A DNA stretch of 64,000 nt from the IMG/VR virus record IMGVR_UViG_3300027792_000307, positions 866-64,865 of that record. One strand, given 5' to 3'. The first letter of the stretch is position 1. The number at the start of each line of letters is the position of its first letter. Below, piece by piece: positions 7,357 to 22,481 of this stretch. Below the pieces are notes generated by a model, which was not told the origin of the DNA, did no database searches, and was given only the letters and a program-made list of their open reading frames with translations. The position numbers and the translations under genes were made by a program. The stretch is from a virus (taxonomy: Duplodnaviria > Heunggongvirae > Uroviricota > Caudoviricetes).

Positions 7357-7614
7357 ATGACTCGTTTAAATGATAAAATTAATAAAGACATTAAATTGGT
7401 TAAAAATTACTTTAAAAATAGATATAAAAATGACTATATAAATAAACAATACACCATATGCGTATTATTATGGGCAGATAAAGATTATTGTATAAGATTA
7501 AGGCACGGAAATGCAATTAAAGATATAGAATATCATAATTCTGAAAAAACTTTAATAGAATACAATACTAAACATCATATAGATAGTATAACTAAATTGA
7601 GGAACAGAAAATGA
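7357..7614 (+). CDS. hypothetical protein
   Basis: 85-aa ORF; ATGA overlap with next gene. Confidence 0.5.
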   Translation: MTRLNDKINKDIKLVKNYFKNRYKNDYINKQYTICVLLWADKDYCIRLRHGNAIKDIEYHNSEKTLIEYNTKHHIDSITKLRNRK

Positions 7615-7841
7615 AATTAAGAAAGGCAGATTATTGTTTAATGAAAGGAACGTATTTACGCATTAAATCAGCAAGTTTGGATGATATAATTAGAGTTACA
7701 AGCACAAAATCAAGAACGATTAGAGGTAGAGTTTTAAAATCTCTTGTTTCAGAAGATGTTGGTAAACTTTATAGATATATAGTAGAAGAATTAGATATTA
7801 ATGTAATTAAAAAGAAAGATTTGATGTTGGAATTATTATAA
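7611..7841 (+). CDS. hypothetical protein
   Basis: 76-aa ORF starting in ATGA overlap. Confidence 0.5.
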   Translation: MKLRKADYCLMKGTYLRIKSASLDDIIRVTSTKSRTIRGRVLKSLVSEDVGKLYRYIVEELDINVIKKKDLMLELL

Positions 7842-7972
7842 AGGAGAATTAAAATGGAAGAAATAAACGAAGATGATATATTTGTTTTCCACGCAAGAAC
7901 AGGAAATAAAGTAATGCTGATGAAAATTAGTTTCTGTCAAGTATCCAGAGATTTTAAAATGGAGAAAATGTA

Positions 7973-8092
7973 ATGCAAACTTCCTGCCCGATTTGTAAAA
8001 AACCATTAAAGGTGTGGTATTCAGGTTGTGGAGGCAAAAAGTTTATGGGTTGCTCGGATATTAAATGCCAATTTAAAGAGGAAATTGAATAA
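7973..8092 (+). CDS. small zinc-ribbon protein (39 aa)
   Basis: CPICKK..(16)..GC..C spacing; ATG overlaps previous stop (aTGtaATGc). Confidence 0.35.
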   Translation: MQTSCPICKKPLKVWYSGCGGKKFMGCSDIKCQFKEEIE

Positions 8093-8139
8093 AATTTAGG
8101 GTTACTATATGATTAGTAACAGATATGGAGGTATATATT

Positions 8140-8337
8140 ATGGCAACAAAGAAAGAAGAAACCCAAAAACCAAAGGCAGTAGCACACACAATGACCATCG
8201 AAAACATTATGGCGTATCCTTATACAAAGGAAGGAGATGCCGATGGATTCATTCGCAGGAGATTAATTGGTCAAGTTGTGTTTGAAGGCAAAATCCTGCA
8301 GATTAATGGTTTCGCAACACAGCGAAAAGGTCAGTAA
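8140..8337 (+). CDS. hypothetical protein
   Basis: ORF with ggaggtatatattATG SD context. Confidence 0.5.
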   Translation: MATKKEETQKPKAVAHTMTIENIMAYPYTKEGDADGFIRRRLIGQVVFEGKILQINGFATQRKGQ

Positions 8338-8347
8338 TTCGACACAG

Positions 8348-8409
8348 AATCGGGGTGCATTACAACCCCAGATAAAGACCACACGGGCAATTAAAATAGC
8401 ACCCCGATT
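8348..8409 (+). terminator. perfect 11-bp-stem hairpin (AATCGGGGTGC..40 nt..GCACCCCGATT) followed by T-rich run
   Basis: Read directly; immediately 3' of CDS ending 8337 and followed by attattttaattt. Confidence 0.5.
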
Positions 8410-8432
8410 ATTTTAATTTCAAGGAGGAAATT

Positions 8433-8603
8433 ATGAGACTAATATCATTTATACTTGGAATTGTAATGATTTTTTGTTTCTTTTTAAATTGGAATTCAGC
8501 AAGAGTAGTAAGAGGAAACGGAAAATACATTGCAATTATATTAATGCCGACCTGTATCATTTTTGCTATACTTGATTTTATGGCAGCATTTGAATTATTT
8601 TAA
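8433..8603 (+). CDS. small hydrophobic membrane protein
   Basis: aaggaggaaattATG SD; 56 aa, two hydrophobic stretches. Confidence 0.4.
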   Translation: MRLISFILGIVMIFCFFLNWNSARVVRGNGKYIAIILMPTCIIFAILDFMAAFELF

Positions 8604-8934
8604 TTCTTAATACTACGGTAGATGATATAGCAATACCAAAGATGGATACACAAGGGGTATCGGCATATAGGGATAGAAAATATAAGTGTTGCCCTAAAGG
8701 AGTTAGGTGACGGCTTACTCCCCTTATATCATTCTATCTACCCATATCCTATCCTATAACTTTGGTTAAAGCCGATATAGTATTTGGAATTGGAGGATAA
8801 TTATGAACAGGTTTTTAAAGTGGCTATTATATGGCAAAATCCATTGGAAAATGCGACATATAGCATACTTTATAGTAGTTTGCTTGTTTTTGAGTGCATT
8901 TGTAAGCATATTATTAAGATAAGGAGGGAAAATT

Positions 8935-9177
8935 ATGGAACAAATAGAATATAAAGGGCAAAAATATAGAGTAAAATACACACATATAAGACCAATTTTG
9001 AATGGTAAAATACAATCGAGAGGCGGTACGACAGTTGCATTTATAACGGATAGAGAACAAAATGTGATTGCAAGCGGTCAGGCAAATGTATCTTTAAAGG
9101 ACACTTACCAGAAAAAATTGGGAAGGATTATAGCAACTGGCAGATTATTAAAGGCACTTGGATTACCACGAAAATGA
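8935..9177 (+). CDS. hypothetical protein (weak resemblance to phage N4 gp49 / Sf6 gp66-type small proteins); first gene of the contiguous small-gene array
   Basis: 80-aa ORF, aaggagggaaaattATG; ..TTVAFITDREQNVIASGQANVSLKDTYQKKLGRIIATGRL.. Resemblance is from memory only. Confidence 0.5.
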   Translation: MEQIEYKGQKYRVKYTHIRPILNGKIQSRGGTTVAFITDREQNVIASGQANVSLKDTYQKKLGRIIATGRLLKALGLPRK

Positions 9178-9401
9178 AATACGCAAAATTAACTATGAAA
9201 CAACCAAGCGATTCAATAAAAATAAAATGGGTTGAAATAATTAAGGTTTTAAAAGACGATAGATTTCCAACTTGTATAAAAGGAAAATGCCTAATGTGTA
9301 ATGCAGATAAAGAAGATGTTGGAAGAACCTTTTATTATGATAAAAAATATTGGGATGTAATTACTTTAACAAAAGAGCAGGTTTTTATGGAGATGATATG
9401 A
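9174..9401 (+). CDS. small protein with stereotyped LE(V/I)L-junction C-terminus (array member; tail VFMEMI)
   Basis: ATGA overlap at both ends; 3' end gtttttatggagatgatATGA. Confidence 0.55.
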   Translation: MKYAKLTMKQPSDSIKIKWVEIIKVLKDDRFPTCIKGKCLMCNADKEDVGRTFYYDKKYWDVITLTKEQVFMEMI

Positions 9402-9598
9402 ATAAATTTGAGATAAATGATTATATTAGACTCAAATACGCCCAAGATTATATTGGAGTAATAATAGGAATGAGATACGAATGTAATAAGCACTATGTAT
9501 ATAGAGTTGCATTTATTAAGAATTCAAAGGTATCATTTGAAGATGAAATAGACCTTATTAAACTTACCGAGCAAGAATTATTTATGGAGATATTATGA
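9398..9598 (+). CDS. small protein, LEVL-junction array member (tail LFMEIL)
   Basis: Start in ATGA overlap; 3' end ttatttatggagatattATGA. Confidence 0.55.
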   Translation: MNKFEINDYIRLKYAQDYIGVIIGMRYECNKHYVYRVAFIKNSKVSFEDEIDLIKLTEQELFMEIL

Positions 9599-9846
9599 AT
9601 AAATACAAGTATAGTGTAAAGAATTTAAAGGTTGGAGATTGGATAGATTCTACAGATTATTGGAATATGAGATATCTATATAAAGTTTTATTTATAAAAA
9701 AAAAGATATATATGACTTTAAATTGTTATATAATTAGAAACAACTCACCAGAAAATTTAGGAATAACTAAACATCGTATTAATTATTTCGATGAAAATCA
9801 ATTTAAAGTAATAGACGAATCGGAAGCATTTCAATGGTTTATATAA
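9595..9846 (+). CDS. small protein, array member (N-terminal KVGDWI motif; degenerate tail AFQWFI)
   Basis: ATGA-overlap start; N-terminal ..LKVGDWIDS.. shared with other members. Confidence 0.5.
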   Translation: MNKYKYSVKNLKVGDWIDSTDYWNMRYLYKVLFIKKKIYMTLNCYIIRNNSPENLGITKHRINYFDENQFKVIDESEAFQWFI

Positions 9847-9855
9847 GGAAAAATT

Positions 9856-10083
9856 ATGAAAATAGGCAGGATTGTAAGATTAACTTGGAAAGAAGATAAA
9901 CATTATATAGTTATTCTTCAAGTAAAAACAAAGGATACCAGAATGAAACCTGTTACTTATTCTGGAATTGTAATTTCTAATCCAGAAAGGGATACATATA
10001 TTGGCGAAGAATTTTGGTTTAATAGTCGTTATTGGAATATAGAAATATTAAAAAAAGATAAGGCATTTTTGGAGATATTATGA
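9856..10083 (+). CDS. small protein, array member (tail AFLEIL)
   Basis: 3' end gcatttttggagatattATGA overlapping next start. Confidence 0.55.
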   Translation: MKIGRIVRLTWKEDKHYIVILQVKTKDTRMKPVTYSGIVISNPERDTYIGEEFWFNSRYWNIEILKKDKAFLEIL

Positions 10084-10277
10084 AAGAAGCATTATATTTT
10101 GGGAATTTTTGGTTTGAAAATGCCTATTCTAACAGAGGAACATGTAGGATATGCAACGAAAAAATTAAAAAGGACGAAGGATTATTAGTTGCTTGGTTTA
10201 ACAATAGAAGATGTGCAATTCATTCAAGACATTTTAACGAGGAAATTAGGAATGAAATTTTAATACATATGTTGTGA
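10080..10277 (+). CDS. small Cys/His-containing protein, array member (tail ILIHML)
   Basis: ATGA-overlap start; CRIC..(n)..C..H. Confidence 0.5.
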   Translation: MKEALYFGNFWFENAYSNRGTCRICNEKIKKDEGLLVAWFNNRRCAIHSRHFNEEIRNEILIHML

Positions 10278-10425
10278 GGTAATATGCACACACTAATTAC
10301 TAAATTCGATGCAGGATATAGATTTTACAGGGATACAAGATATGGTAATTTTCATTTGATTTGTTACCTATATAAGTATCTATCAGTTATATCTCTTTGG
10401 ATATGGGTTAAATCTGGGGGGAATT

Positions 10426-10695
10426 ATGAAACGAGTTAGTAAATACAAATTAGAGAATGGAAAAATCTATAAAATATGGAATAAAAGGTTGGGCGAATTA
10501 ATAATTTTCAAGATACTTTCTGAAAGTATAAGAGAATTATATGATGGGTGTATTGATGTTAATAAGACACATATTTATATAAGAAAACAAGATAATAAAA
10601 TTTACACGCAAAATGAGGAAATGGATTTAAAGATATTTAAAGATGACACTTTATATGAATTGTCCGAGTTGCAATTATTTGGGGAACTTTTATAG
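10426..10695 (+). CDS. small protein, array member (tail LFGELL)
   Basis: gggggaattATG SD; junction-type C-terminus. Confidence 0.5.
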   Translation: MKRVSKYKLENGKIYKIWNKRLGELIIFKILSESIRELYDGCIDVNKTHIYIRKQDNKIYTQNEEMDLKIFKDDTLYELSELQLFGELL

Positions 10696-10701
10696 GAGAA
10701 A

Positions 10702-11088
10702 TTGGAAATGAACGATATATACATAACAACGAAGGGCGTTAAGAAGCGATTAAAACAGGAAAAAGTTGGGTTTATTTCAAGAACACAAACCTTGTTTTTA
10801 ACGTGGTTATTAGAACCAATAACAGGGGGTTGGCATTTACACTATAAGGGCAACAAATACAATAATTTTTCCTTAATATTCCTCAACTTACGAAATTTAA
10901 ATAGAAAACATAAAATATCTCACTATAATGGAGATAGAGTTACTAATACTATAAACCACGAAATGCTACACCACGTTCTAACAAAATATATAGATAGCAA
11001 TACATCAAGTAAATTAGATAAATTAGTATATAAAGCAATTAAGGATATGAAATTTAGGGAATGGGCATCGGAATATGGATTAATATGA
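10702..11088 (+). CDS. hypothetical 128-aa protein containing an HExxH motif (INHEMLHHV)
   Basis: aggagaaattggaaATG; HEMLH read directly. Metalloprotease assignment speculative. Confidence 0.5.
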   Translation: MEMNDIYITTKGVKKRLKQEKVGFISRTQTLFLTWLLEPITGGWHLHYKGNKYNNFSLIFLNLRNLNRKHKISHYNGDRVTNTINHEMLHHVLTKYIDSNTSSKLDKLVYKAIKDMKFREWASEYGLI

Positions 11089-11345
11089 TAAAACAGATTG
11101 AATTAAAAGAAGGATATTTTTATTACGCAGAGCATAATAAAGATTCTAAGTGGCAGGATTGGAGATTCATAGGGAAAATTACTGGAAAGAAAGTTAAGAA
11201 AGCAAAAACATTTTGGTTTCCTTATTTAATTGTAAGGGGAAAATATGAACACGAAACTGGAGAATTCTCCCACGATTCTGCTCATTTCGAATCAATTAAA
11301 GGAGTTTCAAAAACAATAACTGGATTGAGAGTTTATATGCTTTAG
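11085..11345 (+). CDS. small protein, array member
   Basis: ATGA overlap with upstream stop (ggattaatATGAtaaaac). Confidence 0.5.
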   Translation: MIKQIELKEGYFYYAEHNKDSKWQDWRFIGKITGKKVKKAKTFWFPYLIVRGKYEHETGEFSHDSAHFESIKGVSKTITGLRVYML

Positions 11346-11358
11346 AGGAAATATAAAA

Positions 11359-11520
11359 ATGGAAATAGATATATGGGCGTTATTCATAACATTATTTACG
11401 GTTGCTTTATTGCAGGAATTAATCATAAAACCATTGGTAGAATTTCTAAAGGAATACCTGAAAAAATACTACAAGAAATCTAAACGGCACATTAAGAAAT
11501 TAATTAAGGAGGAATTATGA
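11359..11520 (+). CDS. small hydrophobic membrane protein (53 aa)
   Basis: Hydrophobic N-terminal helix; ends ggaggaattATGA overlapping next start. Confidence 0.4.
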   Translation: MEIDIWALFITLFTVALLQELIIKPLVEFLKEYLKKYYKKSKRHIKKLIKEEL

Positions 11521-11765
11521 GGAAAGTAAAACCACAGGATATAAAGGTTGGACAAATATATTTACAGATTATTGGTTTCACTAAATTGTATAAAAAAAGA
11601 ATTAGTAAAGGAAATGAAGATGAAATATGGGGTAATTATATTAAAACAGATAGACCAAATTGTTATCCAAAAGGAGAACATGGATTTGTAAGGTATGATA
11701 GTGGTGCAGAATTTTATCTATTAAATGAAAAGGAAATTGGGGAATTATTTTTTGAGGAAATATAA
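11517..11765 (+). CDS. small protein, array member (paralog A of a recent tandem duplicate; MRKVKPQDIKVGQIYLQ..)
   Basis: First 18 aa almost identical to next gene; tail LFFEEI. Confidence 0.65.
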   Translation: MRKVKPQDIKVGQIYLQIIGFTKLYKKRISKGNEDEIWGNYIKTDRPNCYPKGEHGFVRYDSGAEFYLLNEKEIGELFFEEI

Positions 11766-12016
11766 TGAGGAAAGTAAAACCACAGGATATAAAGGTTGGG
11801 CAAATATATCTACAGGTTATGGGAGAAACTAAACTATATAAGAAACGAATTAATAAAGGAAAAAAAGATGAAATATGGGGATATTATATTACATCAAACA
11901 AAAACTATTTTTTTCCTAAAGGAGAAGATGGTTTCGTACCCTATAATAGTACCGATGCTAAATTTTATCTATTAAATGAAAAGGAAATCGGAGAATTGTT
12001 TTTGGAGGAATTATAA
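11765..12016 (+). CDS. small protein, array member (paralog B of tandem duplicate)
   Basis: MRKVKPQDIKVGQIYLQ.. and ..FYLLNEKEIGELF.. shared with 11517..11765; tail LFLEEL. Confidence 0.65.
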   Translation: MRKVKPQDIKVGQIYLQVMGETKLYKKRINKGKKDEIWGYYITSNKNYFFPKGEDGFVPYNSTDAKFYLLNEKEIGELFLEEL

Positions 12017-12234
12017 TGTATCGAAAAGATATGGATAAATACAAAGAAAAACTTACAATGATATTAGAAAAAGGAATACAGAAGGAAGGTTTTTCTCACC
12101 AAGAATTACAAGACCTTGAAAATGAATTTGAAAAGATAATCCAAGAGATATATGAGCACGGTTACGAAGATGGCACTAATGAAAGGGAACACGAACAGGA
12201 AAAAGAACCTGTGCCTTGGGAGGATTTAGATTAA
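12016..12234 (+). CDS. acidic hypothetical protein
   Basis: 72-aa ORF starting in ggaggaattATAATG context. Confidence 0.5.
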   Translation: MYRKDMDKYKEKLTMILEKGIQKEGFSHQELQDLENEFEKIIQEIYEHGYEDGTNEREHEQEKEPVPWEDLD

Positions 12235-12235
12235 A

Positions 12236-12526
12236 ATGGGAAAGAAATTTATTCTTGGAGAAAATGAAGATAGAGATAAAAAATTAACTGGAAAGATTAT
12301 ATGGTTTAAGGGAAGAAAAATTGATAGTAAAACTATCTTTAGAACGGGAATAGCAAAAGTTAAGGGAGTAGAAACAGGAATGGATGGTCTTCGTATATAT
12401 ATTGATATGATAACTGAATTATCAAAAGAGCATACAAATGATTTTAGTTCATTTGAATGGGAAATACATAAAGGAGATGAAGTAGAAATATTAACTAAAA
12501 AAGAGGCATTTCTCTATCAATTATAG
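12236..12526 (+). CDS. small protein, array member (tail AFLYQL)
   Basis: 96-aa ORF; junction-type C-terminus (gaggcatttctctatcaattatag). Confidence 0.5.
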   Translation: MGKKFILGENEDRDKKLTGKIIWFKGRKIDSKTIFRTGIAKVKGVETGMDGLRIYIDMITELSKEHTNDFSSFEWEIHKGDEVEILTKKEAFLYQL

Positions 12527-12535
12527 GAGATTAAT

Positions 12536-12802
12536 ATGTTGCCAAAATCAAAATTCAAGGAAGGATATTATTATTACGTAGATTTTGTATCAGCCCATTT
12601 TTTAGAAAAAGTTTGCTTTATTGCTCAAATAGAAAAAATAGACGGAGAATTTATTCACTATAAAATTATAAACTCTTATGAATCTGGTAAAAGAGTTTGG
12701 AAAGAAAATGAATGTGGAGTTATGGAAGTTGGCTCAATGCATTATAAAGGAATTAAGGCAGTAGAAAAAGAAAAGAAGGATTTATTCTTATATATTTTAT
12801 GA
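12536..12802 (+). CDS. small protein, array member (tail LFLYIL)
   Basis: aggagattaatATG SD. Confidence 0.5.
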   Translation: MLPKSKFKEGYYYYVDFVSAHFLEKVCFIAQIEKIDGEFIHYKIINSYESGKRVWKENECGVMEVGSMHYKGIKAVEKEKKDLFLYIL

Positions 12803-12841
12803 GGCGATTTGATTTTTCAGATAAGGTTAGGAGATATATAT

Positions 12842-13078
12842 ATGAAGAAAAAATGTAATTGCGACAAGGTACATATAACCCAGAAACAGATAAAGGAAAT
12901 GCAGGAAAGGGTTGAAAGAATTGAAGAATTGATGAAAAAGGTTACAAAAACCCTTGAAAAGGAAGGTTGGGTACAAAATGAATACTGGGAATTAGATGGC
13001 AACGAAGATAATGTAATATGTGCCTCGTTTATTAATATAGATTTAGACCAATTATCTGTATTTTTTAACAGGGATTAA
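12842..13078 (+). CDS. hypothetical protein (CNCDK.. N-terminus)
   Basis: aggttaggagatatatATG SD; start chosen at internal ATG of track ORF 12809..13078. Confidence 0.5.
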   Translation: MKKKCNCDKVHITQKQIKEMQERVERIEELMKKVTKTLEKEGWVQNEYWELDGNEDNVICASFINIDLDQLSVFFNRD

Positions 13079-13080
13079 AT

Positions 13081-13302
13081 ATGATTAAAATTGGAGATTG
13101 GTATAGATGTCCTACACATTCGTTAATCGAGCAAGAATTTATGAGTAAATATTATTCTCCATTTAAAATCATAGATATAGAGGAAAGTATGTGCACTTGT
13201 AAAGGTCATAATTCGGGTTTTACTTGGCGTTGGAGTAAAAACTATATCAAAGCGTGTTGCAAAAAAATGACAAAAGGACAGGTATTTGAAGGAATGTTGT
13301 AA
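13081..13302 (+). CDS. small Cys-rich protein, array member (tail VFEGML)
   Basis: KIGDWYRC N-terminus; several Cys. Confidence 0.5.
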   Translation: MIKIGDWYRCPTHSLIEQEFMSKYYSPFKIIDIEESMCTCKGHNSGFTWRWSKNYIKACCKKMTKGQVFEGML

Positions 13303-13554
13303 ATGAAACGATTAAAGCAATCAAAAGAGATTAAAAAGGACGACTATATTAAAGCAATAAATAACCGAGGGAAATATATTGTTTTTAACTGCTTGGATAG
13401 TAGATACCCAAACACTGCTCTTATTTTAGATACCGATATAGCAGGGTTAGAAACAATGATAGGAAAGACCGAATATTTAAGTAAATTCGCACTCGAACAC
13501 GAATTTAAGTTATATAGGTTAAATAAGTTCGAAAAATGGCAATATATACTATAA
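13303..13554 (+). CDS. small protein, array member
   Basis: Immediately follows previous stop (gttgtaaATG). Confidence 0.5.
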   Translation: MKRLKQSKEIKKDDYIKAINNRGKYIVFNCLDSRYPNTALILDTDIAGLETMIGKTEYLSKFALEHEFKLYRLNKFEKWQYIL

Positions 13555-13749
13555 AGGAGAGAAAATGGCGGAAAACAAGTTATTGATACAGAACGAAGTG
13601 GTAAGGCAGGCATTTCTTATGGCAAACTATATGTATTTGTATAATAGTGCTAATGATTCGGCACTAACTATATTAATACCAGAAGAAAAGAGAACGGGAG
13701 AAGGAGAATTGGACAGGAAACCAGATTTACCAAAATCTCCTTAAAGATT

Positions 13750-14022
13750 ATGAGATATAAGATATTAAAACCAAATCATTACTACCGATTTACATATAAA
13801 GAAGGTAAGAATTTATGTAAGGCATATTACTTACATTTTTCTCACTATTCGGAACGGACTAAATTTATAAACGTATTTAAGGCATATAAAGTAAACCATA
13901 ATGGAAATATAAATAAATTTGGCACGAGAGAATTATTATTAAAACCCTACAGAAAAAATAGATATGCAAAGGAAATAACAGAAGAAGAATACGAACAGGG
14001 AGTTATGCTTGAGGTATTATGA
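13750..14022 (+). CDS. small protein, array member (tail VMLEVL)
   Basis: ATGA overlap with next gene. Confidence 0.55.
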   Translation: MRYKILKPNHYYRFTYKEGKNLCKAYYLHFSHYSERTKFINVFKAYKVNHNGNINKFGTRELLLKPYRKNRYAKEITEEEYEQGVMLEVL

Positions 14023-14267
14023 CGAACGTGAAGGTTGGTAAATACTATATGTTTACTTATAACTCCCCAAAATATGTAAAATTAATATATTGTAAAATTT
14101 TAGAAAAGACTAAAAGTTCCTTTTATATTAGAGGTTTTAGTATTGACCATGAAGATAGATTTTTTAAACATAATTATAGTTTAATTCCATTAATAAATCG
14201 AGATAGAAACATAAAAGAAATAACAGAAGAAGAATTCGAACGGGCAACCATGTTGGAGATGATATAA
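14019..14267 (+). CDS. small protein, array member (tail TMLEMI; shares EITEEE(F/Y)E internal motif with previous gene)
   Basis: ..KEITEEEYEQGVMLEVL vs ..KEITEEEFERATMLEMI: adjacent paralogs. Confidence 0.6.
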   Translation: MTNVKVGKYYMFTYNSPKYVKLIYCKILEKTKSSFYIRGFSIDHEDRFFKHNYSLIPLINRDRNIKEITEEEFERATMLEMI

Positions 14268-14463
14268 TGAAAACAAAAAAGTTGTTTGAAGATTTGGAAG
14301 TAGATATAACGCAGATGAAATACTGGCTAAAAGGCAAAGGTTGGCTTTAGAATGAAAGAGATTATAGATAAGAAACTTTGCCGATTCTGTGATTTTGGGG
14401 ATAAAAAACACGATGGAAGTTGCATTTTAAAGGGATGTAAATTTGAATCAGAGGTAAAAACCA

Positions 14464-14676
14464 ATGGAATTTGAAATTGGGGATTATGTTAGAATTAAGG
14501 TTCATTATTTAGCAAATCCAGATAATTGGAGAGGAAAAATAGTAAATAGAAAGATGAATTTCGACCAGTTTGGTTTACCATTCTATGTGTATAAAATTAT
14601 GATTAAAGATGGAAGAATTGCACATGAAATGGATTGCGATTTAGAGAAAATTGACTGGTTATTGGAGGAATTATGA
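14464..14676 (+). CDS. small protein, array member (IGDYVRIKV N-terminus; tail WLLEEL)
   Basis: ATGA overlap at 3' end (ttggaggaattATGA). Confidence 0.55.
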   Translation: MEFEIGDYVRIKVHYLANPDNWRGKIVNRKMNFDQFGLPFYVYKIMIKDGRIAHEMDCDLEKIDWLLEEL

Positions 14677-14918
14677 TAGAATTTAAAGTGGGGAGTTTCT
14701 ATAAGTTTATTCCCACAAATATAAAAAAAGGATTCTATATATGCAAAGTGTTGGAAGAAAGGAAAGACCTATATATAGTTGAGGTTATTTACGATAAAGA
14801 TGAGAGTAGTACAAGATTTGAAGTAGGAAAGATACTTAAATTTTCAAAAGATAGAGATAATATAAAACCACGAACTGAATATATCAAAGAGGAAGATGTT
14901 TTTCTGGAGGTATTATGA
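14673..14918 (+). CDS. small protein, array member (KVGSFYKF; tail VFLEVL)
   Basis: 3' end gtttttctggaggtattATGA. Confidence 0.55.
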   Translation: MIEFKVGSFYKFIPTNIKKGFYICKVLEERKDLYIVEVIYDKDESSTRFEVGKILKFSKDRDNIKPRTEYIKEEDVFLEVL

Positions 14919-15538
14919 CGCAATCTGAATACAATGAAGATTATATATGGTTTGATAGTAGTACACGGGGATATAGTTACTTTTCTTATTACTATCTCAC
15001 AAGAGTTCAAAATGGGTTAGCGAAAAAAATAAAATTTAAATACAAAGACAATGTAGATACTATAACTATATATGAAAACAACCATTCTTTTGGTAAAGTT
15101 TTAGAAAAACAACACTTTCAGGAATTCGTTGATTATTGTGTAAAGAAAGGAATAGAAATAAAGGAGATAGAAGAGGATAAAACCAGCAAGAAATTCACCG
15201 TTGAAAAACTATTGGAAAAGATGGGAATACAAAGAATGTCCTGCCAATATGGTTGTTCTCAAACAATTAAATACAATAAAGATAGAGAAATTGTAGCATA
15301 TACCCTCGGTCCATATTCGGGGTTGATTATAGTTAAAAAGTTAAATGAAAAGGAAGGATATTTTGCGAGCAGATTTTATATTACTTACTTAAAGAGAGGA
15401 GATGCAACATTTACAGGGATGGATTTAAATGAAGCGTTGGGAGAATTAAGGAGATTTAAGAAGGAAGGATTTAAGGTTGTATTAAGCAAAAAAACGGAGG
15501 AAAAATTGCAGAGTGCAATATTTATGAAGAATATATAG
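14915..15538 (+). CDS. hypothetical 207-aa protein
   Basis: ATGA-overlap start; no motif recognised. Confidence 0.6.
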   Translation: MTQSEYNEDYIWFDSSTRGYSYFSYYYLTRVQNGLAKKIKFKYKDNVDTITIYENNHSFGKVLEKQHFQEFVDYCVKKGIEIKEIEEDKTSKKFTVEKLLEKMGIQRMSCQYGCSQTIKYNKDREIVAYTLGPYSGLIIVKKLNEKEGYFASRFYITYLKRGDATFTGMDLNEALGELRRFKKEGFKVVLSKKTEEKLQSAIFMKNI

Positions 15539-15546
15539 GAGGAAAA

Positions 15547-15774
15547 ATGAAAGAAATATATATAAGGTGCGATTGTACAACGGAAGTTATGAGGATAGAA
15601 TATGATGAAGAAGAAAAACAATACTATATAAGTATATATGAATATAAAACAAGTAAGTATCCTATAAGGCAAAAATTAAAATGGATTTGGCGTATCTTTA
15701 GATTTGGAACTCCTTATGGAGACCAAATTGTAGTTTCAAAAGAAAAAATGGATAAACTAAAGGAGTTTTTATAA
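15547..15774 (+). CDS. hypothetical protein
   Basis: aggaggaaaaATG SD. Confidence 0.5.
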   Translation: MKEIYIRCDCTTEVMRIEYDEEEKQYYISIYEYKTSKYPIRQKLKWIWRIFRFGTPYGDQIVVSKEKMDKLKEFL

Positions 15775-15792
15775 TAAATTAGGAGATATAAT

Positions 15793-16017
15793 ATGGATTT
15801 AGTAGAGGTTAAAAAGAAAACCAAATGTATGTTCTGTAAGAAAACATTAAATAAGGGTGATATGGCAGATTATTCCTGTGGTAGAGGATATGCTTGTCAA
15901 TCCTGTCAGAAGAATATAGAACAAGATATAGAAAAAGAATTAGGAAAGATTCCAGATACAACCTGTCCTTTATGTAAAGGAACAGGCAAAGTTTCTGGAT
16001 TATATAATATATTTTAA
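15793..16017 (+). CDS. zinc-finger protein (multiple CxxC)
   Basis: CMFCKK..C..C..C..CPLCKGTGK. Confidence 0.5.
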   Translation: MDLVEVKKKTKCMFCKKTLNKGDMADYSCGRGYACQSCQKNIEQDIEKELGKIPDTTCPLCKGTGKVSGLYNIF

Positions 16018-16029
16018 AGGAGGTATATT

Positions 16030-17160
16030 ATGGAAGTATTTGAAGTAAACCACCAAGAACTTAAAGCATTCATTAAGAAATGCTATACAAGCAAATTGCC
16101 ACTACATATGTGGGGCACTATTGGAATTGGAAAATCTGAATCTGCCGATGAGGTTGCTAATGAATTGGCAGGGGAGTTCCAACGAAAATATGTTAAATGG
16201 AACAAACTGACGAAAGAGGAAAAGCACAAACTCGCAGAAAATCCAAAGGATTATTTCTTCTTTATGGATATTCGGTTGTCTCAATTAGACCCGAGTGATT
16301 TAAGAGGATTACCTGCACTGAATGGGCACGATACAGTAGAGTGGAAAATTCCATTCTGGTTACACGTAGCAACCCTGAAAGATGCCAAAGGAATTATCTT
16401 CTTTGATGAGATGAACCTTTCTCCACCGAGTATTCAAGCGAGTGGGTATCAGGTAATTCTTGACCGAGCATTAGGAGAGGTTACATTAGCAGACGGTGTT
16501 GGTGTAATCGCAGCAGGTAACAGGATTACAGATAAAGCAAATGTCTATGATATGGCAAAACCACTACAAAATCGGTTCAACCACGTTACCTTGAAAGTTC
16601 CAAACATCGAGGCATGGACATCTTGGGCAATTACCAAAGGAGTTGATACAAGAATAATTACATTCCTTAATGCACGACCACAACTTTTAATGGGTCGGTT
16701 GGATATGAAATCTGGAGATGTGGCATTTCCAACTCCGAGGACTTGGGGTAAATATTGTAGTGCCTTGATTAACGGAGAGACTGGGTTGGATAATCTTATG
16801 CAATTAGCCAGTGCATCTGTTGGAACAGGGGCAGCGACAGAATTTATCAGTTTCATTAAGTTGCAAAAGCAAATCAACTTACAGGAATTGCTAAAGAAAC
16901 CTGAAACGGCAACCAACATCAAGGAAACCGATATGTTATATTCGTTGGTCGGTTTAGTTTCAGAGTGGTATGATGCACATACCAAAGCCGATGACTTGGA
17001 TAAAGTTCTACAAATATCCAACAACCTACAGCCAGAGTTTGCTATCCTTATGCTTCGTATGTGTAAGGAACGACACCTGCCACAATTCAGACGAGATGTA
17101 AACAAATTGGATTCGTGGAAAATAACGTGGAAAAAGTATGGGAAATACTTTGAAATTTAA
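16030..17160 (+). CDS. MoxR-like AAA+ ATPase (AAA_5 type)
   Basis: Walker A GTIGIGKSE, Walker B IIFFDEMNL, sensor-1 AAGN read directly. Partner VWA protein lies 1.2 kb downstream, as in MoxR-VWA pairs. Confidence 0.75.
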   Translation: MEVFEVNHQELKAFIKKCYTSKLPLHMWGTIGIGKSESADEVANELAGEFQRKYVKWNKLTKEEKHKLAENPKDYFFFMDIRLSQLDPSDLRGLPALNGHDTVEWKIPFWLHVATLKDAKGIIFFDEMNLSPPSIQASGYQVILDRALGEVTLADGVGVIAAGNRITDKANVYDMAKPLQNRFNHVTLKVPNIEAWTSWAITKGVDTRIITFLNARPQLLMGRLDMKSGDVAFPTPRTWGKYCSALINGETGLDNLMQLASASVGTGAATEFISFIKLQKQINLQELLKKPETATNIKETDMLYSLVGLVSEWYDAHTKADDLDKVLQISNNLQPEFAILMLRMCKERHLPQFRRDVNKLDSWKITWKKYGKYFEI

Positions 17161-17398
17161 GATAGGAGACTATGTTCTCCTATCTAATCCCTGTGTTCCA
17201 CGATTTTTTATGACAGTTGGAAGGATTGTTAGTATAACTCCAAGAGGATTTTACGAGGTAAAATTATTAAATGGAAATCCTTACTTAAATAATATCCATT
17301 TACCAAAGGGTATTCATTGGACAAATACTAATGTTTATATGTTAGCAAAAGAAATGACTAAATTGACGGAAGAAGAATACCTAATCGAGGCATTATGA
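17138..17398 (+). CDS. small protein, array member (KIGDYVLL; tail YLIEAL)
   Basis: N-terminal KxKIGDYV motif; ATGA overlap at 3' end. Confidence 0.55.
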   Translation: MGNTLKFKIGDYVLLSNPCVPRFFMTVGRIVSITPRGFYEVKLLNGNPYLNNIHLPKGIHWTNTNVYMLAKEMTKLTEEEYLIEAL

Positions 17399-17607
17399 AA
17401 TCTAAACCAAAGTATAAAGTGGGGGATTATATACTTGTCCTCCGTTCCCAAAATCCTTATTTGATTTGTAAAATTAAAAAATTATATTCTTACATATTAG
17501 ATGAAATCGTTTATGTTGTTGAGTTTCCAAATGGAAATGAAGGATATTTAAGTGAAGAACAAATGAGAAAAATCAGCAAGGAAAGATACTTTTTAGAGGC
17601 ATTATGA
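17395..17607 (+). CDS. small protein, array member (KVGDYILV; tail YFLEAL)
   Basis: ATGA overlaps both ends. Confidence 0.6.
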   Translation: MKSKPKYKVGDYILVLRSQNPYLICKIKKLYSYILDEIVYVVEFPNGNEGYLSEEQMRKISKERYFLEAL

Positions 17608-17813
17608 AATTCAAAGTTGGCGACCACGTTAGAATAATAACAAAAGAATACGGAGATTTGTGGTATAATAAAGTTGGAACAGTAAAGGATATTTATACAA
17701 ATGAACAAGTTTCTATTGATGTAGAACATTTATCAGAAAAATATTTTGGTGCATTTTTTGAAAGAGAATTAAAAAAAATATCAAAGCAGGAATATTTCCT
17801 TGAGGTATTATAA
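17604..17813 (+). CDS. small protein, array member (KVGDHVRI; tail YFLEVL)
   Basis: Close paralog of previous two (..KISKQEYFLEVL vs ..KISKERYFLEAL). Confidence 0.6.
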   Translation: MKFKVGDHVRIITKEYGDLWYNKVGTVKDIYTNEQVSIDVEHLSEKYFGAFFERELKKISKQEYFLEVL

Positions 17814-18094
17814 TGCCGTATGTTATTAGAAATAAGGTAACTGGTTGGTTCTGGTATTCCGATAAATTTCAAAGGGCAAAAACATTTAGAAGTTTAACAG
17901 CAGCAAAATGTGCTTTAACATCTTTTATTGGAGATACCTACTACTTAAGGAATTGTAAGAAGTTAAAAGGAAAACCAGAAAGGGAACAACTCGAAAGATT
18001 TAGAATAAAAAGAGATGAATGGGAAATTATAGAGGTAGAATTAAAAATAGTAGATGAAGAAGTAGCAAAAAGAATATTTTTGGATATGTTATAA
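17813..18094 (+). CDS. hypothetical protein (tail IFLDML)
   Basis: 93-aa ORF; taATG right after previous stop. Confidence 0.5.
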   Translation: MPYVIRNKVTGWFWYSDKFQRAKTFRSLTAAKCALTSFIGDTYYLRNCKKLKGKPEREQLERFRIKRDEWEIIEVELKIVDEEVAKRIFLDML

Positions 18095-18105
18095 AGGAGA
18101 TAAAT

Positions 18106-18390
18106 ATGGTAAAACTACACTTTGAAGATGAAGATGGAAACATAGTAAATGAGGCATATTTTGATGCGTATGCTTTTGGAGATAGATTATTAGAGGGAGT
18201 AATATATAAGGCAACAATAGTAAATAATGAAATAGTTATAACCTATGCAGATAAAACCACGGCAGAATATATGGAACAATTCAATGAGAAAATGTGGTTT
18301 GAAAATGCAAAAGCATATATAGAAGATGAACCAGATTTGATGAGTAAAAATGGAAAGAAGGAGATTTATTTAGTTAAAGAAGAGGAATAG
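18106..18390 (+). CDS. acidic hypothetical protein
   Basis: aggagataaatATG SD. Confidence 0.5.
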   Translation: MVKLHFEDEDGNIVNEAYFDAYAFGDRLLEGVIYKATIVNNEIVITYADKTTAEYMEQFNEKMWFENAKAYIEDEPDLMSKNGKKEIYLVKEEE

Positions 18391-18391
18391 T

Positions 18392-19669
18392 ATGGTAGAA
18401 TTAAGTCCGTTGGATAAGTTAATTAAAGCAAGAATAGACCTATTAAGAGAAAAACCGTTCTTCGCATTTTTGGCAAACCACTTGGAGTTTGTGGAAGTTA
18501 CTGAGAAAGAATGCCCTACAATGGGGGTTGATATAAAGGGAACTATGGTATATAATCCCAACTTTGTAGCAAAACTTTCAAAGGAAGAATGTAAAGGGGT
18601 TCTTTGCCACGAGGTTATGCACTGTGCACTGGAACATATGAAACGGCACAGAGGAAAGAAATTGGATTTATGGAATGTTGCAGGTGATACAGTTATTAAT
18701 ACAATCCTTTCAGCAGATGGATTAACCTTGCCTAAAGATGGAATTATGCCTCACAACGGTGATATAACTCTATTTGGAATTAGGATAACTGAAACCGATA
18801 AGAAATGTGCCGAGGAAGTTTACGATGCTGTATATTCAAAGTTAAGGCAGAAAGATATAAAGGATTTGGAGAAATTCTTAAAGAGCCACGCTGATAGTAA
18901 AAAGGGATTTGATGTTCATATATACCCTGCACCTGGAGATGGAGAAGATGGGGACCAAAAAGGAAATGGAAAACAAGGAGAAGGATTATCTGGAGGATTA
19001 GCAGGGGAATTAAAGACAGATAAAGGAAAGAACTGGGGAAAATTAATGGTTGATGCTTGTACCTTTGCCAGAAACCAAGGTAAACTACCAGCAGGAATGG
19101 AAAGAATCCTCGGGGATTTATTGAAAACTGATTTGGATTGGAGAGGGTTACTCTATAGATATATCACAAACCAAATACCTGTGGATTATTCTTGGGCACA
19201 ACCATCAAAGAAATCCTATTCTGTTGGAACATATCTCCCGTCTGTTACAAAGGAATCCCTTGATTTAGTAATTGCCATAGATACCTCTGGGAGTATTTCC
19301 AAAACAGAGTTAGATGAATTTGCTTCGGAATTATGTGGTATTATTAATTCCTTTGCGAATGTTTCTCTTACGATTATAGATTGCGATTGCGAGATTAATT
19401 CTGTGGTTAAGAAACAACGAGCAACAGTAACCGACATTACAGATTTAAAATTAAGAGGGGGAGGAGGTACTTCACACATCCCAGTATATCGTTGGTTGGA
19501 CGAGAATCTTCCTAATGCCAAATTGGTTATCTGTTTTACGGATGGATATACATCGTTTCCGAAGTCAAGTTCAATCCCAACATTATGGGTAGTCGCAGGA
19601 AGCAGCAGAATGGAGGAAAACAAATTCCCATTCGGAGATGTGGTTTACCTTGATAGGAAAGAAAATTAG
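18392..19669 (+). CDS. putative metallopeptidase domain + von Willebrand factor A domain protein (DUF2201-like partner of MoxR ATPases)
   Basis: HExxH (CHEVMHCALEH) in the N-terminal half and a MIDAS-type motif DTSGSIS in the C-terminal half, read directly. Confidence 0.7.
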   Translation: MVELSPLDKLIKARIDLLREKPFFAFLANHLEFVEVTEKECPTMGVDIKGTMVYNPNFVAKLSKEECKGVLCHEVMHCALEHMKRHRGKKLDLWNVAGDTVINTILSADGLTLPKDGIMPHNGDITLFGIRITETDKKCAEEVYDAVYSKLRQKDIKDLEKFLKSHADSKKGFDVHIYPAPGDGEDGDQKGNGKQGEGLSGGLAGELKTDKGKNWGKLMVDACTFARNQGKLPAGMERILGDLLKTDLDWRGLLYRYITNQIPVDYSWAQPSKKSYSVGTYLPSVTKESLDLVIAIDTSGSISKTELDEFASELCGIINSFANVSLTIIDCDCEINSVVKKQRATVTDITDLKLRGGGGTSHIPVYRWLDENLPNAKLVICFTDGYTSFPKSSSIPTLWVVAGSSRMEENKFPFGDVVYLDRKEN

Positions 19670-19874
19670 GTACTTTAAGATTAGTTATGAAGGTGGAGAT
19701 TATTTTATAGTAAAAGAATTACCAAATCATAAATGGATTATTATATATTCTATTGTGGATGAAATTTTCCATAATCTTCAAGTCCAACATTATTTATACG
19801 ACCCGTTAAATTATGGAGTGAAAAGAGAGGAAATATCTGAAGCCGAAGCACAAATGGAGATTATGTTAGGATGA
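19638..19874 (+). CDS. hypothetical protein
   Basis: 78-aa ORF; start uncertain (overlaps upstream gene by ~30 nt). Confidence 0.4.
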   Translation: MWFTLIGKKIRYFKISYEGGDYFIVKELPNHKWIIIYSIVDEIFHNLQVQHYLYDPLNYGVKREEISEAEAQMEIMLG

Positions 19875-22387: not shown

Positions 22388-22481
22388 ATGGGATTCTTAG
22401 ATTGGATTGGGTTAGGTTGGTTTGTAGTGTTTGTATTGGCTTGTATAGGATTAGTAATCTGTATCTTTTTGGTGATTTAAA

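What the first reader, a model, noticed from the sequence alone, without database searches (positions are those of the whole stretch)
11517..12016. Freshly duplicated adjacent array members
Genes 11517..11765 and 11765..12016 share MRKVKPQDIKVGQIYLQ at the N-terminus and ..FYLLNEKEIGELF(F/L)EE(I/L) at the C-terminus, with a divergent middle. Neighbours are otherwise unrecognisably different. Likewise 13750/14019 share ..KEITEEE(Y/F)E..MLE(V/M)(L/I), and 17395/17604 share ..KISK(E/Q)(R/E)YFLE(A/V)L. This shows the array grows by local tandem duplication followed by fast divergence, consistent with an arms-race cassette system.
Basis: seen in the sequence. Interest (0 to 1): 0.55.

Follow-up and report, generated by a model that had tools for sequence, protein, structure and literature searches.

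The report
Old tandem duplicate in viral small-gene array
Two neighbouring 82/83-codon genes of an uncultivated virus are true tandem copies, but old ones kept by selection, inside a family of at least 33 small beta-barrel proteins whose members are gained and lost as whole genes by recombination at the gene junctions.

Summary
Genes 11517-11765 and 11765-12016 are head-to-tail paralogs along their whole length: 72% amino-acid identity, 81% nucleotide identity, BLASTP E 2e-41.

They are not fresh. dS is about 0.55 and dN/dS about 0.26. The two copies are as far from each other as from the single-copy ortholog in a sister virus lineage, where the flanking genes are the same.

They belong to a virus-specific family of at least 33 small proteins in this window. 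Each is a predicted Tudor/SH3-like barrel plus a C-terminal helix. The family has no Pfam or PHROG match.

The shared C-terminal x-F-[L/M]-E-x-[L/I] motif is a protein motif, but its codons (TG GAG ... TTA TGA) also form the Shine-Dalgarno site and the overlapping start of the next gene.

Tandem duplication is a real mode of growth. The three most similar of 3403 protein pairs are all adjacent.

Related viruses show ongoing turnover:
- The A/B type occurs in 1, 2 or 3 copies.
- One to five small genes sit between the same ATPase and DUF2201 genes.
- Two 98-99% identical relatives differ by whole genes, with breakpoints in 13-17 nt of junction homology.

An arms race and the function of the proteins remain untested.

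The parts
11517..11765 (+). Gene A (82 aa), the upstream tandem copy and the faster-evolving one
   Evidence: ORF. 72% aa and 81% nt identity to B. 21 unique nucleotide changes against 12 in B. AlphaFold2 pLDDT 90.5: strands 2-4, 14-19, 22-30, 36-44, 55-59, 65-68 and helix 71-79.
11765..12016 (+). Gene B (83 aa), the downstream tandem copy and the more conservative one
   Evidence: ORF. 78% aa identity to P0003 and 72% to the single-copy ortholog of L006/L008. Its last 75 nt differ at 1 position from the L008 ortholog.
11498..11516 (+). Upstream junction: the last codons of the 53-aa membrane-protein gene (..KEEL), which carry the GGAGG SD for gene A, with an ATGA stop/start overlap
   Evidence: Sequence aaggaggaattATGA. 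The repeat alignment starts at 11498.
11743..11767 (+). A/B junction: the last codons of A (..LFFEEI) hold the GAGGA SD for B, with a TAATG overlap
   Evidence: repeat D4, 89% identical to the B/downstream junction.
11994..12018 (+). Junction between B and the downstream gene (..LFLEEL, TTGGAGGAATTATAATG)
   Evidence: It shares GGAGGAATTAT with the junction upstream of A.
11359..11520 (+). Left flanking gene (53 aa, hydrophobic N-terminus), conserved next to the single copy in relatives
   Evidence: 85% aa identity to L008 1141-1293.
12016..12234 (+). Right flanking gene (72 aa, MYRKDM...PWEDLD), conserved next to the single copy in relatives
   Evidence: 62% aa identity to L006/L007/L008 orthologs. 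Also matched in L017.
13750..14267 (+). Older adjacent pair 13750-14022 / 14019-14267
   Evidence: 32% aa identity, E 9e-5, z 12.1. The 3' ends are 74% identical over 69 nt. In relative L009 the 14019 ortholog is 55% identical, but the 13750 slot holds an unrelated family member.
17138..17813 (+). Adjacent triplet 17138-17398 / 17395-17607 / 17604-17813 between the AAA+ ATPase and DUF2201 genes
   Evidence: z 12.4, 10.4 and 5.7. Relatives have 1-2 genes here. In L016 the first 6 codons of 17138 are fused to a 17395 ortholog. The AlphaFold2 model of 17604 has pLDDT 82 and the same architecture.
7611..29927 (+). Main part of the small-gene array: 30 of the 33 HMM-defined family members, interspersed with backbone genes
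   Evidence: HMM iteration, alignment A6 and the junction table.
39362..42229 (+). Outlying family members 39362-39610, 39607-39780 and 42017-42229

Best explanation
Shown:
- Genes A and B are a whole-gene, head-to-tail tandem duplicate of about 250 bp.
- The host sequence is an uncultivated double-stranded DNA virus. Its host is unknown.
- The same virus, with both copies, was assembled independently from three metagenomes.
- A sister lineage has one copy between the same two flanking genes. A third lineage has three diverged copies.
- The duplication is old. The copies differ at 19% of nucleotides and are about as far from each other as from orthologs in other lineages.
- Both copies stay intact under purifying selection. 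Most differences fall in predicted loops, above all the loop between strands 3 and 4.
- The pair belongs to a family of at least 33 small proteins in this window. Each has a five- or six-stranded Tudor/SH3-like beta-barrel closed by a C-terminal amphipathic helix that ends x-F-[L/M]-E-x-[L/I].
- The genes are packed in one direction with 1- or 4-base stop/start overlaps.
- The last three or four codons of each gene are chosen (..TG GAG xTA TTA TGA) so that they also form the GGAG ribosome-binding site and start codon of the next gene. The end of the protein motif is therefore doubly constrained.

Inferred:
- These near-identical 13-18 nt junctions act as recombination sites at which whole genes are duplicated, deleted or swapped in frame.
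- Each rearranged gene keeps its translational coupling.
- The A/B duplicate arose this way, by unequal exchange between the GGAGGAATTAT sequences at its two ends.

Inferred, weakest step (about 0.35):
- The proteins are a diversified set of small binding modules.
- They are made as a coupled polycistron for host takeover or counter-defence.
- Each paralog has a different target.
For: Duplicate:
- establish the full-length similarity.
- Six contigs from JGI samples 3300027762, 3300009037 and 3300009009 are 99.98-100% identical to the window and carry both genes.

Copy number in relatives:
- One copy between the same flanks in L006, L007 and L008.
- Three copies in L012 and one in L013.

Age and selection:
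- dS 0.55, dN 0.14, dN/dS 0.26.
- Pairwise aa identities among A, B, P0003 and the L006 ortholog are 70-78%.
- Quartet-informative sites: AB 6, BX 6, AX 2.

Family and fold:
- HMM iteration to 33 members.
- With the last 10 residues removed and leave-one-out training, 17 of 33 members outscore all 75 other small proteins.
- Two AlphaFold2 models (pLDDT 90.5 and 82.4) have the same barrel-plus-helix layout.

Dual coding:
- The Glu codon at position -3 is GAG in 18 of 21 members with an abutting gene, against 23% genome-wide (P 2e-9).
- The preceding Leu codon ends in G in 8 of 11, against 19.5% (P 2e-4).
- The two members with no gene downstream keep the F-L-E-I-L or M-L-E-L-L peptide but use GAA.

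Junction recombination:
- L012 and L013 are 98-99.5% identical. They differ by two whole genes with the crossover inside ATATGAAAAAAGT.
- They differ by a third gene with the crossover inside TGGARTTAYTATGA.
- L016 and the window differ by one gene unit joined at TGAAAT.
- Many junctions share 13-18 nt.

Growth between backbone genes:
- ATPase to DUF2201: 5 small genes in the window against 1-2 in L010, L014, L012/L013 and L017.
- DUF2201 to the 305-aa gene: 6 against 0 in L014.
- GP88 gene to the 176-aa gene: 9 against 0 in L017.

Precedent:
- Phage T4 makes tandem amplifications through 6-10 bp microhomologies (PMC9391042).
Against: - The order of duplication and lineage split is unresolved. 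B is nominally closer to P0003 (78%) than to A (72%).
- The original breakpoints of the A/B duplication can no longer be read after 19% divergence. The present A/B junction is 3 nt longer than a simple GGAGGAATTAT crossover predicts.
- With the C-terminus removed, A and B score only 5-6 bits against the family profile, and 4-8 unrelated proteins score higher. Their membership therefore rests on the motif and the predicted fold.
- About six of the 33 'members' are recognised only through the C-terminal motif.
- There is no evidence for function: no Pfam, PHROG or PDB sequence match, and only generic fold matches.
- No positive selection was detected.
- The L012 scaffold has 100-N gaps at graph branch points. 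One of the junction comparisons crosses such a gap, which is bridged by an identical 55-mer.
Confidence: 0.72

Rival explanations
1. One reading: a recent in-place duplication, followed by rapid adaptive divergence of the middle of the protein in an arms race.
For: - The middle is the most variable part: pN 0.20 against 0 and 0.07 at the two ends.
- The first 35 nt are identical.
- A and B share four synonymous states in the first 60 nt against the L008 ortholog.
Against: - dS is 0.55 overall and 0.77 in the middle. dN/dS is 0.31 in the middle, so there is no excess of amino-acid change.
- The same conserved-ends, variable-middle pattern is seen between orthologs of different lineages.
- A and B are not closer to each other than B is to orthologs.
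- All six contigs of this virus are identical, so no copy-number polymorphism is seen.
Confidence: 0.08
2. One copy (most likely A) was not made in place. It was captured from a co-infecting related virus by recombination at the conserved junctions, so the pair is an allele inserted next to its counterpart.
For: - A, B and the orthologs of other lineages are about equidistant, and the neighbour-joining tree puts A outside (L008, (P0003, B)).
- Unique changes are unevenly spread. The X lineage has 6 in the first 60 nt, and A has 6 in the last 69 nt.
- In L012/L013 a junction crossover joins a 97%-identical gene to a 63%-identical one. This shows exchange between diverged genomes at junctions.
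Against: - The internal branches are very short, with quartet sites 6/6/2.
- The 5'/3' asymmetry is not significant (Fisher P 0.13).
- Faster evolution of one copy after duplication explains the same data.
Confidence: 0.2
3. The two-copy state is ancestral, and the single-copy relatives (L006-L008, L013) lost a copy by junction recombination. The duplication would then predate the lineage split.
For: - Deletions of whole genes at junction homology are directly visible between L012 and L013.
- L012 carries three old copies (33-49% identical to A), so this sub-family was multi-copy early.
- The tree does not make A and B sisters.
Against: - dS between flanking orthologs of the two lineages (1.0-1.8) is nominally higher than dS between A and B (0.55). 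This would place the duplication after the split.
- However, B against the ortholog is also only 0.58, so this gene may simply have slow synonymous sites.
Confidence: 0.25
4. The resemblance is confined to junction-forced or low-complexity residues, or is an assembly artefact that placed strain variants in tandem.
For: - The last 3-4 residues really are shaped by the embedded SD.
- Unrelated proteins also end ..EEL or ..SELI where a gene abuts.
Against: - z is 47 after removing the last 6 residues, and identity extends over all 83 columns.
- The same arrangement appears in independent assemblies from three samples.
- Both reading frames are intact, with dN/dS well below 1.
Confidence: 0.01

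Closest known systems
PeSL-mediated modular shuffling in the hyperplastic regions of T4-type phages (Arbiol et al. 2010, PMC2839356; PMC4122927)
   Same: - Stretches of small, non-essential, mostly unknown genes lie between conserved core genes.
- Closely related genomes differ by insertion, deletion and replacement of whole genes.
- The events are bounded by a short conserved sequence repeated at gene boundaries.
   Different: - PeSLs are intergenic promoter-plus-terminator cassettes, and their cargo genes are unrelated to one another.
- Here there is no intergenic space (overlaps of 1 or 4 nt).
- Promoter-like sites are not enriched (51 against 66.5 expected), and terminator-like sites are at the chance level (4 against 4.2).
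- The repeated sequence is the coding 3' end plus the SD plus the start codon.
- Most of the cargo genes are paralogs of one family.
Segmental amplification or 'genomic accordion' of counter-defence genes (T4 tifA, PMC9391042; T6 SegB-driven amplification, PMC13096335; poxvirus K3L, from my own knowledge)
   Same: Head-to-tail tandem copies arise by recombination between short homologies that flank a small accessory gene.
   Different: - Accordion copies are near-identical, unstable and polymorphic between clones, and they act through dosage.
- A and B are 19% diverged, fixed in all six contigs, and each is under purifying selection. This is the end state (retention and divergence), not an active accordion.
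- No link to a defence system is shown.
Multigene families of large DNA viruses (African swine fever virus MGF genes, repeat-protein families of giant viruses; own knowledge and PMC5753266, seen only as a title)
   Same: One fold is expanded to dozens of tandemly clustered paralogs with variable copy number between strains, and function is mostly unknown or host-interaction.
   Different: - The members here are far smaller (57-106 aa) and consist of a single Tudor/SH3-like barrel.
- They are translationally coupled in a prokaryote-type operon.
- The family is restricted to one clade of uncultivated viruses: 40 hits among 1.84 billion representative proteins, about half of them from this virus.
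Tudor / SH3-like / KOW / Sm small beta-barrel folds
   Different: - Sequence identity is 5-18%.
- No Pfam match reaches its threshold. The best are KOW E 0.17, SH3_15 E 0.003 and GPKOW_C E 0.001, all for 17604 only.
- The C-terminal helix with its x-F-[L/M]-E-x-[L/I] end is particular to this family.
- Fold class alone gives no function.
Integron gene-cassette arrays (own knowledge)
   Same: A one-directional array of small genes that are gained and lost as units at a repeated boundary sequence.
   Different: - No attC-type imperfect inverted repeats are possible in overlapping junctions.
- No integrase was seen among the larger proteins scanned.
- The exchange looks like ordinary homology-dependent recombination.

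Membership tests
Small barrel-plus-helix family of this virus clade (defined here, alignment A6) | Protein of 57-106 aa ending in the hydrophobic x-F-[L/M]-E-x-[L/I] C-terminal motif | tested here: met
   A ends ..GELFFEEI and B ends ..GELFLEEL. Both are included by the family HMM.
Small barrel-plus-helix family of this virus clade (defined here, alignment A6) | Predicted five- or six-stranded small beta-barrel followed by a terminal helix | tested here: met
Small barrel-plus-helix family of this virus clade (defined here, alignment A6) | Sequence similarity of the barrel itself, independent of the C-terminal motif | tested here: inconclusive
   With the last 10 residues removed and both copies left out of training, A scores 6.0 bits and B 5.2 bits. 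Four and eight of 75 non-family proteins respectively score as high or higher. For comparison, 17 of 33 members beat all controls.
Tudor domain | Barrel fold similar to solved Tudor domains | tested here: met
Tudor domain | Aromatic cage that reads methylated Lys/Arg, and a sequence match to Tudor profiles | tested here: not met
   No Tudor family appears in the Pfam scan at E <= 1 for A, B or eight other members. The cage geometry was not examined.
KOW / NusG-Spt5 type barrel | KOW sequence motif | tested here: not met
   PF00467 reaches E 0.17 (12.2 bits against a cut-off of 22.3), and only for 17604. There is nothing for A or B.
Sm/LSm/Hfq | Sm1/Sm2 motifs with an N-terminal helix, and ring-forming oligomers | tested here: not met
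Genomic accordion / segmental amplification | Head-to-tail tandem copies of the same unit | tested here: met
   Start-to-start spacing is 248 nt, and the unit runs from junction to junction.
Genomic accordion / segmental amplification | Near-identical copies whose number varies between closely related genomes | tested here: not met
   The copies are 81% identical. Six contigs of this virus all have two copies and are 99.98-100% identical. Copy number differs only between diverged lineages.
Genomic accordion / segmental amplification | Amplified gene counters a host defence | not testable with these tools
   No homolog of known function was found.
PeSL-type modular shuffling | Intergenic promoter plus stem-loop terminator cassette at the module boundaries | tested here: not met
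   The genes overlap by 1 or 4 nt. Between 9000 and 21500 there are 51 promoter-like sites against 66.5 +/- 8.7 expected, and 4 terminator-like sites against 4.2.
PeSL-type modular shuffling | Whole-gene indels between close relatives, bounded by the repeated boundary sequence | tested here: met
   L012/L013 and L016/window.
Integron cassette array | attC recombination sites and an integron integrase | tested here: not met
   The junctions leave no room for attC. No integrase domain was found in the 30 larger proteins scanned. Not every ORF was scanned.
Diversity-generating retroelement target | Template/variable repeat pair and a reverse transcriptase | tested here: not met
   The only long direct repeat in 7-30 kb is the A/B pair itself, and its differences are not restricted to adenines. 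No reverse transcriptase was found among the scanned proteins.

The most novel reading that the evidence does not exclude
The conserved gene end is a three-in-one module: the C-terminal helix of one protein, the ribosome-binding site of the next gene, and the overlapping stop/start. This module would make every gene of the family a self-contained, in-frame, translationally coupled cassette. Ordinary recombination between these 13-18 nt junctions would then act as an integrase-free cassette system. The virus could use it to expand, contract and exchange a library of small Tudor/SH3-like binders, possibly aimed at host defences or working with the conserved AAA+ ATPase / VWA-metallopeptidase pair that the array surrounds.
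Probability: 0.25. Interest if true: 0.65.

Novelty: new variant of a known kind. Interest (0 to 1): 0.4.

Why it matters
Tandem duplication and retention of small accessory genes is an expected way for large viruses to evolve. The pair itself is therefore ordinary.

What is less ordinary is the context:
- About a fifth of the genes in 64 kb belong to one undescribed family of small barrel proteins.
- The family's conserved C-terminal peptide is also the translation signal of the next gene.
- The junctions are the places where closely related genomes differ by whole genes.

If the junction really works as a recombination and coupling module, it gives a simple sequence-level rule for how such arrays grow. 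It also gives a handle for finding similar arrays elsewhere.

The family offers a natural series of duplicates of all ages, from 81% nucleotide identity to barely detectable, for studying the fate of duplicated viral genes.

None of this identifies a function, so the practical value is limited until partners are found.

Tried and rejected
- IMG/VR scans with the A/B alignment and with the ATPase found nothing.
- The family profile in the word-indexed 5.8-billion protein search returned only proteins of this virus.
- The exhaustive profile search found only 40 proteins. About half are from this virus and the rest from close relatives.
- Pfam, PHROGs and the PDB sequence search gave nothing at threshold.
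- BFVD fold hits were only weak, and all to uncharacterised phage proteins. The AFDB50 library was unavailable.
- Tandem Repeats Finder does not report the pair. Two copies at 80% identity fall below its score.
- Literature searches for a described family of this kind found none.
- Gene conversion between A and B was considered because of the identical first 35 nt and the uneven spread of unique changes. The counts are too small to support it (Fisher P 0.13).
- The near-identical 28 nt in 13750/14019 can be explained by the strong GAA/ATA/ACA codon preference.
- Host assignment was attempted and left open:
  - The ERCC4-HhH nuclease matches only a Methanobacteriales virus among 50,697 phage records, and a BRE/TATA-like motif exists.
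  - Against that, the ATPase has about 30% identical homologs in hundreds of bacterial phages, and a 46% identical homolog sits in an Arcobacteraceae bin.
- There are no tRNA genes and no Rfam matches.
- The 55-bp perfect repeats around N runs in L012 and L013 were recognised as scaffolding artefacts and were not counted as duplications.
Full report
**Observation.**
- ORFs 11517-11765 (A, 82 aa) and 11765-12016 (B, 83 aa) lie on the + strand. The stop of A overlaps the start of B.
- They are 72% identical in protein (60/83, BLASTP E 2e-41) and 81% identical in DNA (202/249).
- The N-terminal 17 residues are identical. The C-terminal 17 are 15/17 identical. The middle is about 57% identical, with one 1-codon indel.
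- The Smith-Waterman z-score against shuffled sequence is 54, and 47 when the last six residues are removed.
- The DNA repeat runs 11498-11767 against 11743-12018. It covers exactly one gene plus the junction on each side.
  - 13750/14019: 32% identity, E 9e-5, z 12.1.
  - 17395/17604: z 10.4, and 5.5 without the last six residues.
  - 17138/17395 (z 12.4) makes the second case a triplet.

**Not an artefact.** Six contigs from three JGI metagenomes (3300027762, 3300009037, 3300009009; longest 155 kb) carry both proteins exactly. The three contigs fetched are 99.98-100% identical to the window.

**Age and selection.**
- By Nei-Gojobori counting, dS = 0.55, dN = 0.14 and dN/dS = 0.26.
- The middle third has dS 0.77 and dN/dS 0.31. 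The N-terminal 17 codons have two synonymous changes only.
- Only four protein clusters in 5.8 billion are homologous: B itself, a 99% variant of A, P0003 and P0004.
- A, B, P0003 and P0004 are all 70-78% identical to one another. B is nominally closer to P0003 (78%) than to A (72%).
- With L012 2541-2804 as outgroup, informative sites split AB 6, BX 6, AX 2. Unique changes are A 21, ortholog 21 and B 12.
- The duplication is thus about as old as the split from the sister lineage, and A is the faster copy.
- Flanking orthologs show nominally higher dS (1.0-1.8). B against its ortholog is only 0.58, so the order of events stays unresolved.
- 'Freshly duplicated' is not supported.
- The conserved-ends, variable-middle pattern recurs among orthologs. 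On the model the variable positions fall mostly in loops, notably residues 43-54 between strands 3 and 4.

**Relatives.**
- Three contigs of a sister lineage (L006, L007, L008) have one copy between the same neighbours. The neighbours are the 53-aa hydrophobic protein (85% identical) and the 72-aa MYRKDM...PWEDLD protein (62% identical).
- A third lineage, with an ATPase 79% identical, has three diverged tandem copies in L012 (33-49% identical to A). Its near-identical sibling L013 has one.

**The family.**
- HMM iteration inside the window converges on 33 proteins of 57-106 aa. Thirty lie between 7.6 and 30 kb and three lie at 39-42 kb.
- With the last 10 residues removed and leave-one-out training, 17 of 33 members outscore all 75 other small proteins.
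- About six members depend on the C-terminal motif alone.
- A and B are marginal on barrel sequence, at 5-6 bits.
- AlphaFold2 gives a confident small beta-barrel plus terminal helix for A (pLDDT 90.5) and for 17604 (82.4).
- There is no match in Pfam, PHROGs or PDB sequences.
- An exhaustive profile search of 1.84 billion representatives finds 40 proteins. About half are from this virus. The others are short proteins with the same C-terminal motif, and those whose contigs were fetched come from related viruses.
- The proteins are mildly basic (median pI 8.7) and rich in aromatic residues.

**The C-terminal motif is doubly coded.**
- Genes abut with ATGA or TAATG overlaps. A GGAG-type Shine-Dalgarno site lies 5-8 nt before each start, so it sits inside the preceding gene's last codons.
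- In family members with an abutting gene, the Glu codon at -3 is GAG in 18 of 21, against 23% GAG genome-wide (P 2e-9).
- The Leu codon before it is TTG or CTG in 8 of 11, against 19.5% (P 2e-4).
- Met (ATG) is the common alternative at that position, which also gives TGGAG.
- The two members with no downstream gene (7611, 23119) keep the peptide (MLELL, FLEIL) but use GAA.
- Unrelated proteins such as the 53-aa membrane protein (..KEEL) and the DNA polymerase (..FSELI) show the same pull.
- So the last three or four residues are partly junction-forced. The wider helix, [T/S]-x-x-E-[A/I/V/Y]-F-[L/M]-E-x-[L/I], is a protein feature, and the A/B similarity goes far beyond it.

**Does the array grow by local duplication?**
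- With the last six residues removed, the three best of 3403 pairs among 83 small proteins are all adjacent (chance 1.3e-5).
- Four adjacent pairs exceed z 5, against 0.74 expected (P 0.0055).
- Most neighbours, however, are no more alike than distant members.
- Backbone genes keep their order across relatives while the number of small genes between them changes.

| Interval | Window | Relatives |
|---|---|---|
| AAA+ ATPase to DUF2201 | 5 | L010 and L014: 1; L012/L013 and L017: 2; L016: at least 5, with different content although its ATPase is 95% identical |
| DUF2201 to the 305-aa gene | 6 | L014: 0 |
| GP88-like gene to the 176-aa gene | 9 | L017: 0 |

- In L009 the orthologs of 14019 (55%) and 14673 (64%) are in place. 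The slots of 13750 and 14464, however, hold unrelated family members.

**Breakpoints.** L012 and L013 share blocks that are 98-99.5% identical (one block 95%) and encode the identical ATPase protein.
- L013 lacks two genes. The sequences are:
  - L012 left junction: ..GAGGTTATATGAAAAAAGT|TTCCCC
  - L012 right junction: ..GAGTTAATATGAAAAAAGT|AAGAGT
  - L013: ..GAGGTTATATGAAAAAAGT|AAGAGT

  The crossover therefore lies in 13 shared nt at the stop/start overlap.
- A second indel removes one gene between ..TGGAATTATTATGA and ..TGGAGTTATTATGA.
- In L016 the first six codons of 17138 are joined at TGAAAT to an ortholog of 17395. This is a one-unit difference from the window.
- Junctions across the window share 13-18 nt exact matches.
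- For A/B the two outer junctions share GGAGGAATTAT. The original crossover can no longer be read.

**Mechanism.**
- Shown:
  - A tandem whole-gene duplicate, retained under purifying selection.
  - A dual-coded junction.
  - Whole-gene gain and loss at junction homology in relatives.
- Inferred:
  - The A/B duplicate arose by unequal exchange at the junctions, as phage T4 does through 6-10 bp microhomologies (PMC9391042).
  - Every rearranged gene stays translationally coupled.
- Weakly inferred (about 0.35):
  - The proteins are diversified binding modules for host takeover or counter-defence.
  - This rests only on small size, strain-level turnover, higher dN/dS than core genes (0.17-0.38 against 0.06) and position in a long one-directional block downstream of a divergent region.
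- The host is unresolved.

**Comparison with known systems.**
- The closest described process is PeSL-mediated modular shuffling in T4-type phages (PMC2839356).
- Here there are no intergenic promoter/terminator cassettes, and the cargo genes are paralogs.
- It is not an active genomic accordion, because the copies are diverged and fixed.
- It is not an integron or a diversity-generating retroelement.
- The fold belongs to the Tudor/SH3-like class, without membership of any sequence family.

**Verdict.**
- The pair is an ordinary, fairly old tandem duplicate.
- The surrounding family and its junction-coded cassette behaviour are a new variant of known viral gene-array dynamics.

Noticed in passing
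window 23481-24155 and 24155-24652: These are adjacent paralogs (28% aa identity, E 9e-15). The first carries a cohesin domain (PF00963, E 1.7e-7) and a type I dockerin (PF00404, E 7.6e-6) behind a hydrophobic N-terminus. A virus-encoded cohesin/dockerin protein is unusual.
   Followed up: partly
window 1573-1588 (+), 30011-30026 (+), 555-570 (-), 3546-3561 (+): The motif CGAAAAGTATWTAAAC resembles an archaeal BRE/TATA element and sits upstream of gene blocks. It has 8 matches at up to 3 mismatches, against 3.6 expected. No match on the coding (+) strand lies inside the 3.6-30 kb array, which would fit one or a few long transcripts.
   Followed up: partly
L016 1361-1597 versus window 17138-17607: In a relative whose ATPase is 95% identical, the first gene after the ATPase is a hybrid. 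It has codons 1-6 of 17138 (which overlap the ATPase end) joined to an ortholog of 17395 (56% aa identity). Two further family genes follow that have no counterpart in the window.
   Followed up: yes
window 16030-19669 and loci L010, L012-L014, L016, L017: A family member always starts 23 nt inside the 3' end of the AAA+ (AAA_5/MoxR-like) ATPase gene (MGNT../MANT..). It lies between that gene and the DUF2201 metallopeptidase/VWA gene in every relative examined. This suggests that this one member is tied to that pair.
   Followed up: partly
window 11061-11345 and 12536-12802; L008 883-1131: A second sub-family is marked by KEGY[F/Y]YY near the N-terminus, S..H...IKGV.K, and an end of L.[L/V]Y[M/I]L. 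The two members are 1.2 kb apart on either side of the A/B pair, with z 8.9.
   Followed up: partly
window 25772-26011 and 49068-49250: Two small Cys-rich proteins 23 kb apart share a 22-residue N-terminus (64% identical, E 2e-6).
   Followed up: no
window 50336-52587: A Cas4-like PD-(D/E)XK nuclease gene is followed by a LAGLIDADG endonuclease gene (E 6e-19), and then by an overlapping 204-aa ORF with an HNH-like C-terminus. This looks like a cluster of homing-type nucleases.
   Followed up: no
window 524-616 and 1034-1128: There is a direct repeat of about 95 nt, 79% identical, in the higher-GC (about 40%) region at the left end. There, minus-strand ORFs (279-533, 860-1096) diverge from the long plus-strand block.
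   Followed up: no
window 38686-39381: An ERCC4 + helix-hairpin-helix (XPF-like) nuclease is encoded here. Its only match among 50,697 phage records is a virus assigned to Methanobacteriales (25% identity, E 7e-6). This is a weak hint at an archaeal host. It conflicts with the many bacterial-phage homologs of the ATPase.
   Followed up: partly
L012 2397-2496, 5602-5701, 7922-8021, 9404-9503; L013 3806-3905, 7254-7353, 9109-9208: These are 100-N scaffold gaps. The four checked (L012 2397-2496 and 5602-5701, L013 9109-9208) are flanked by identical 55-mers. At least the first L012 gap sits exactly where the two strain variants diverge, so the assemblies probably broke at population-level cassette polymorphisms.
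   Followed up: partly
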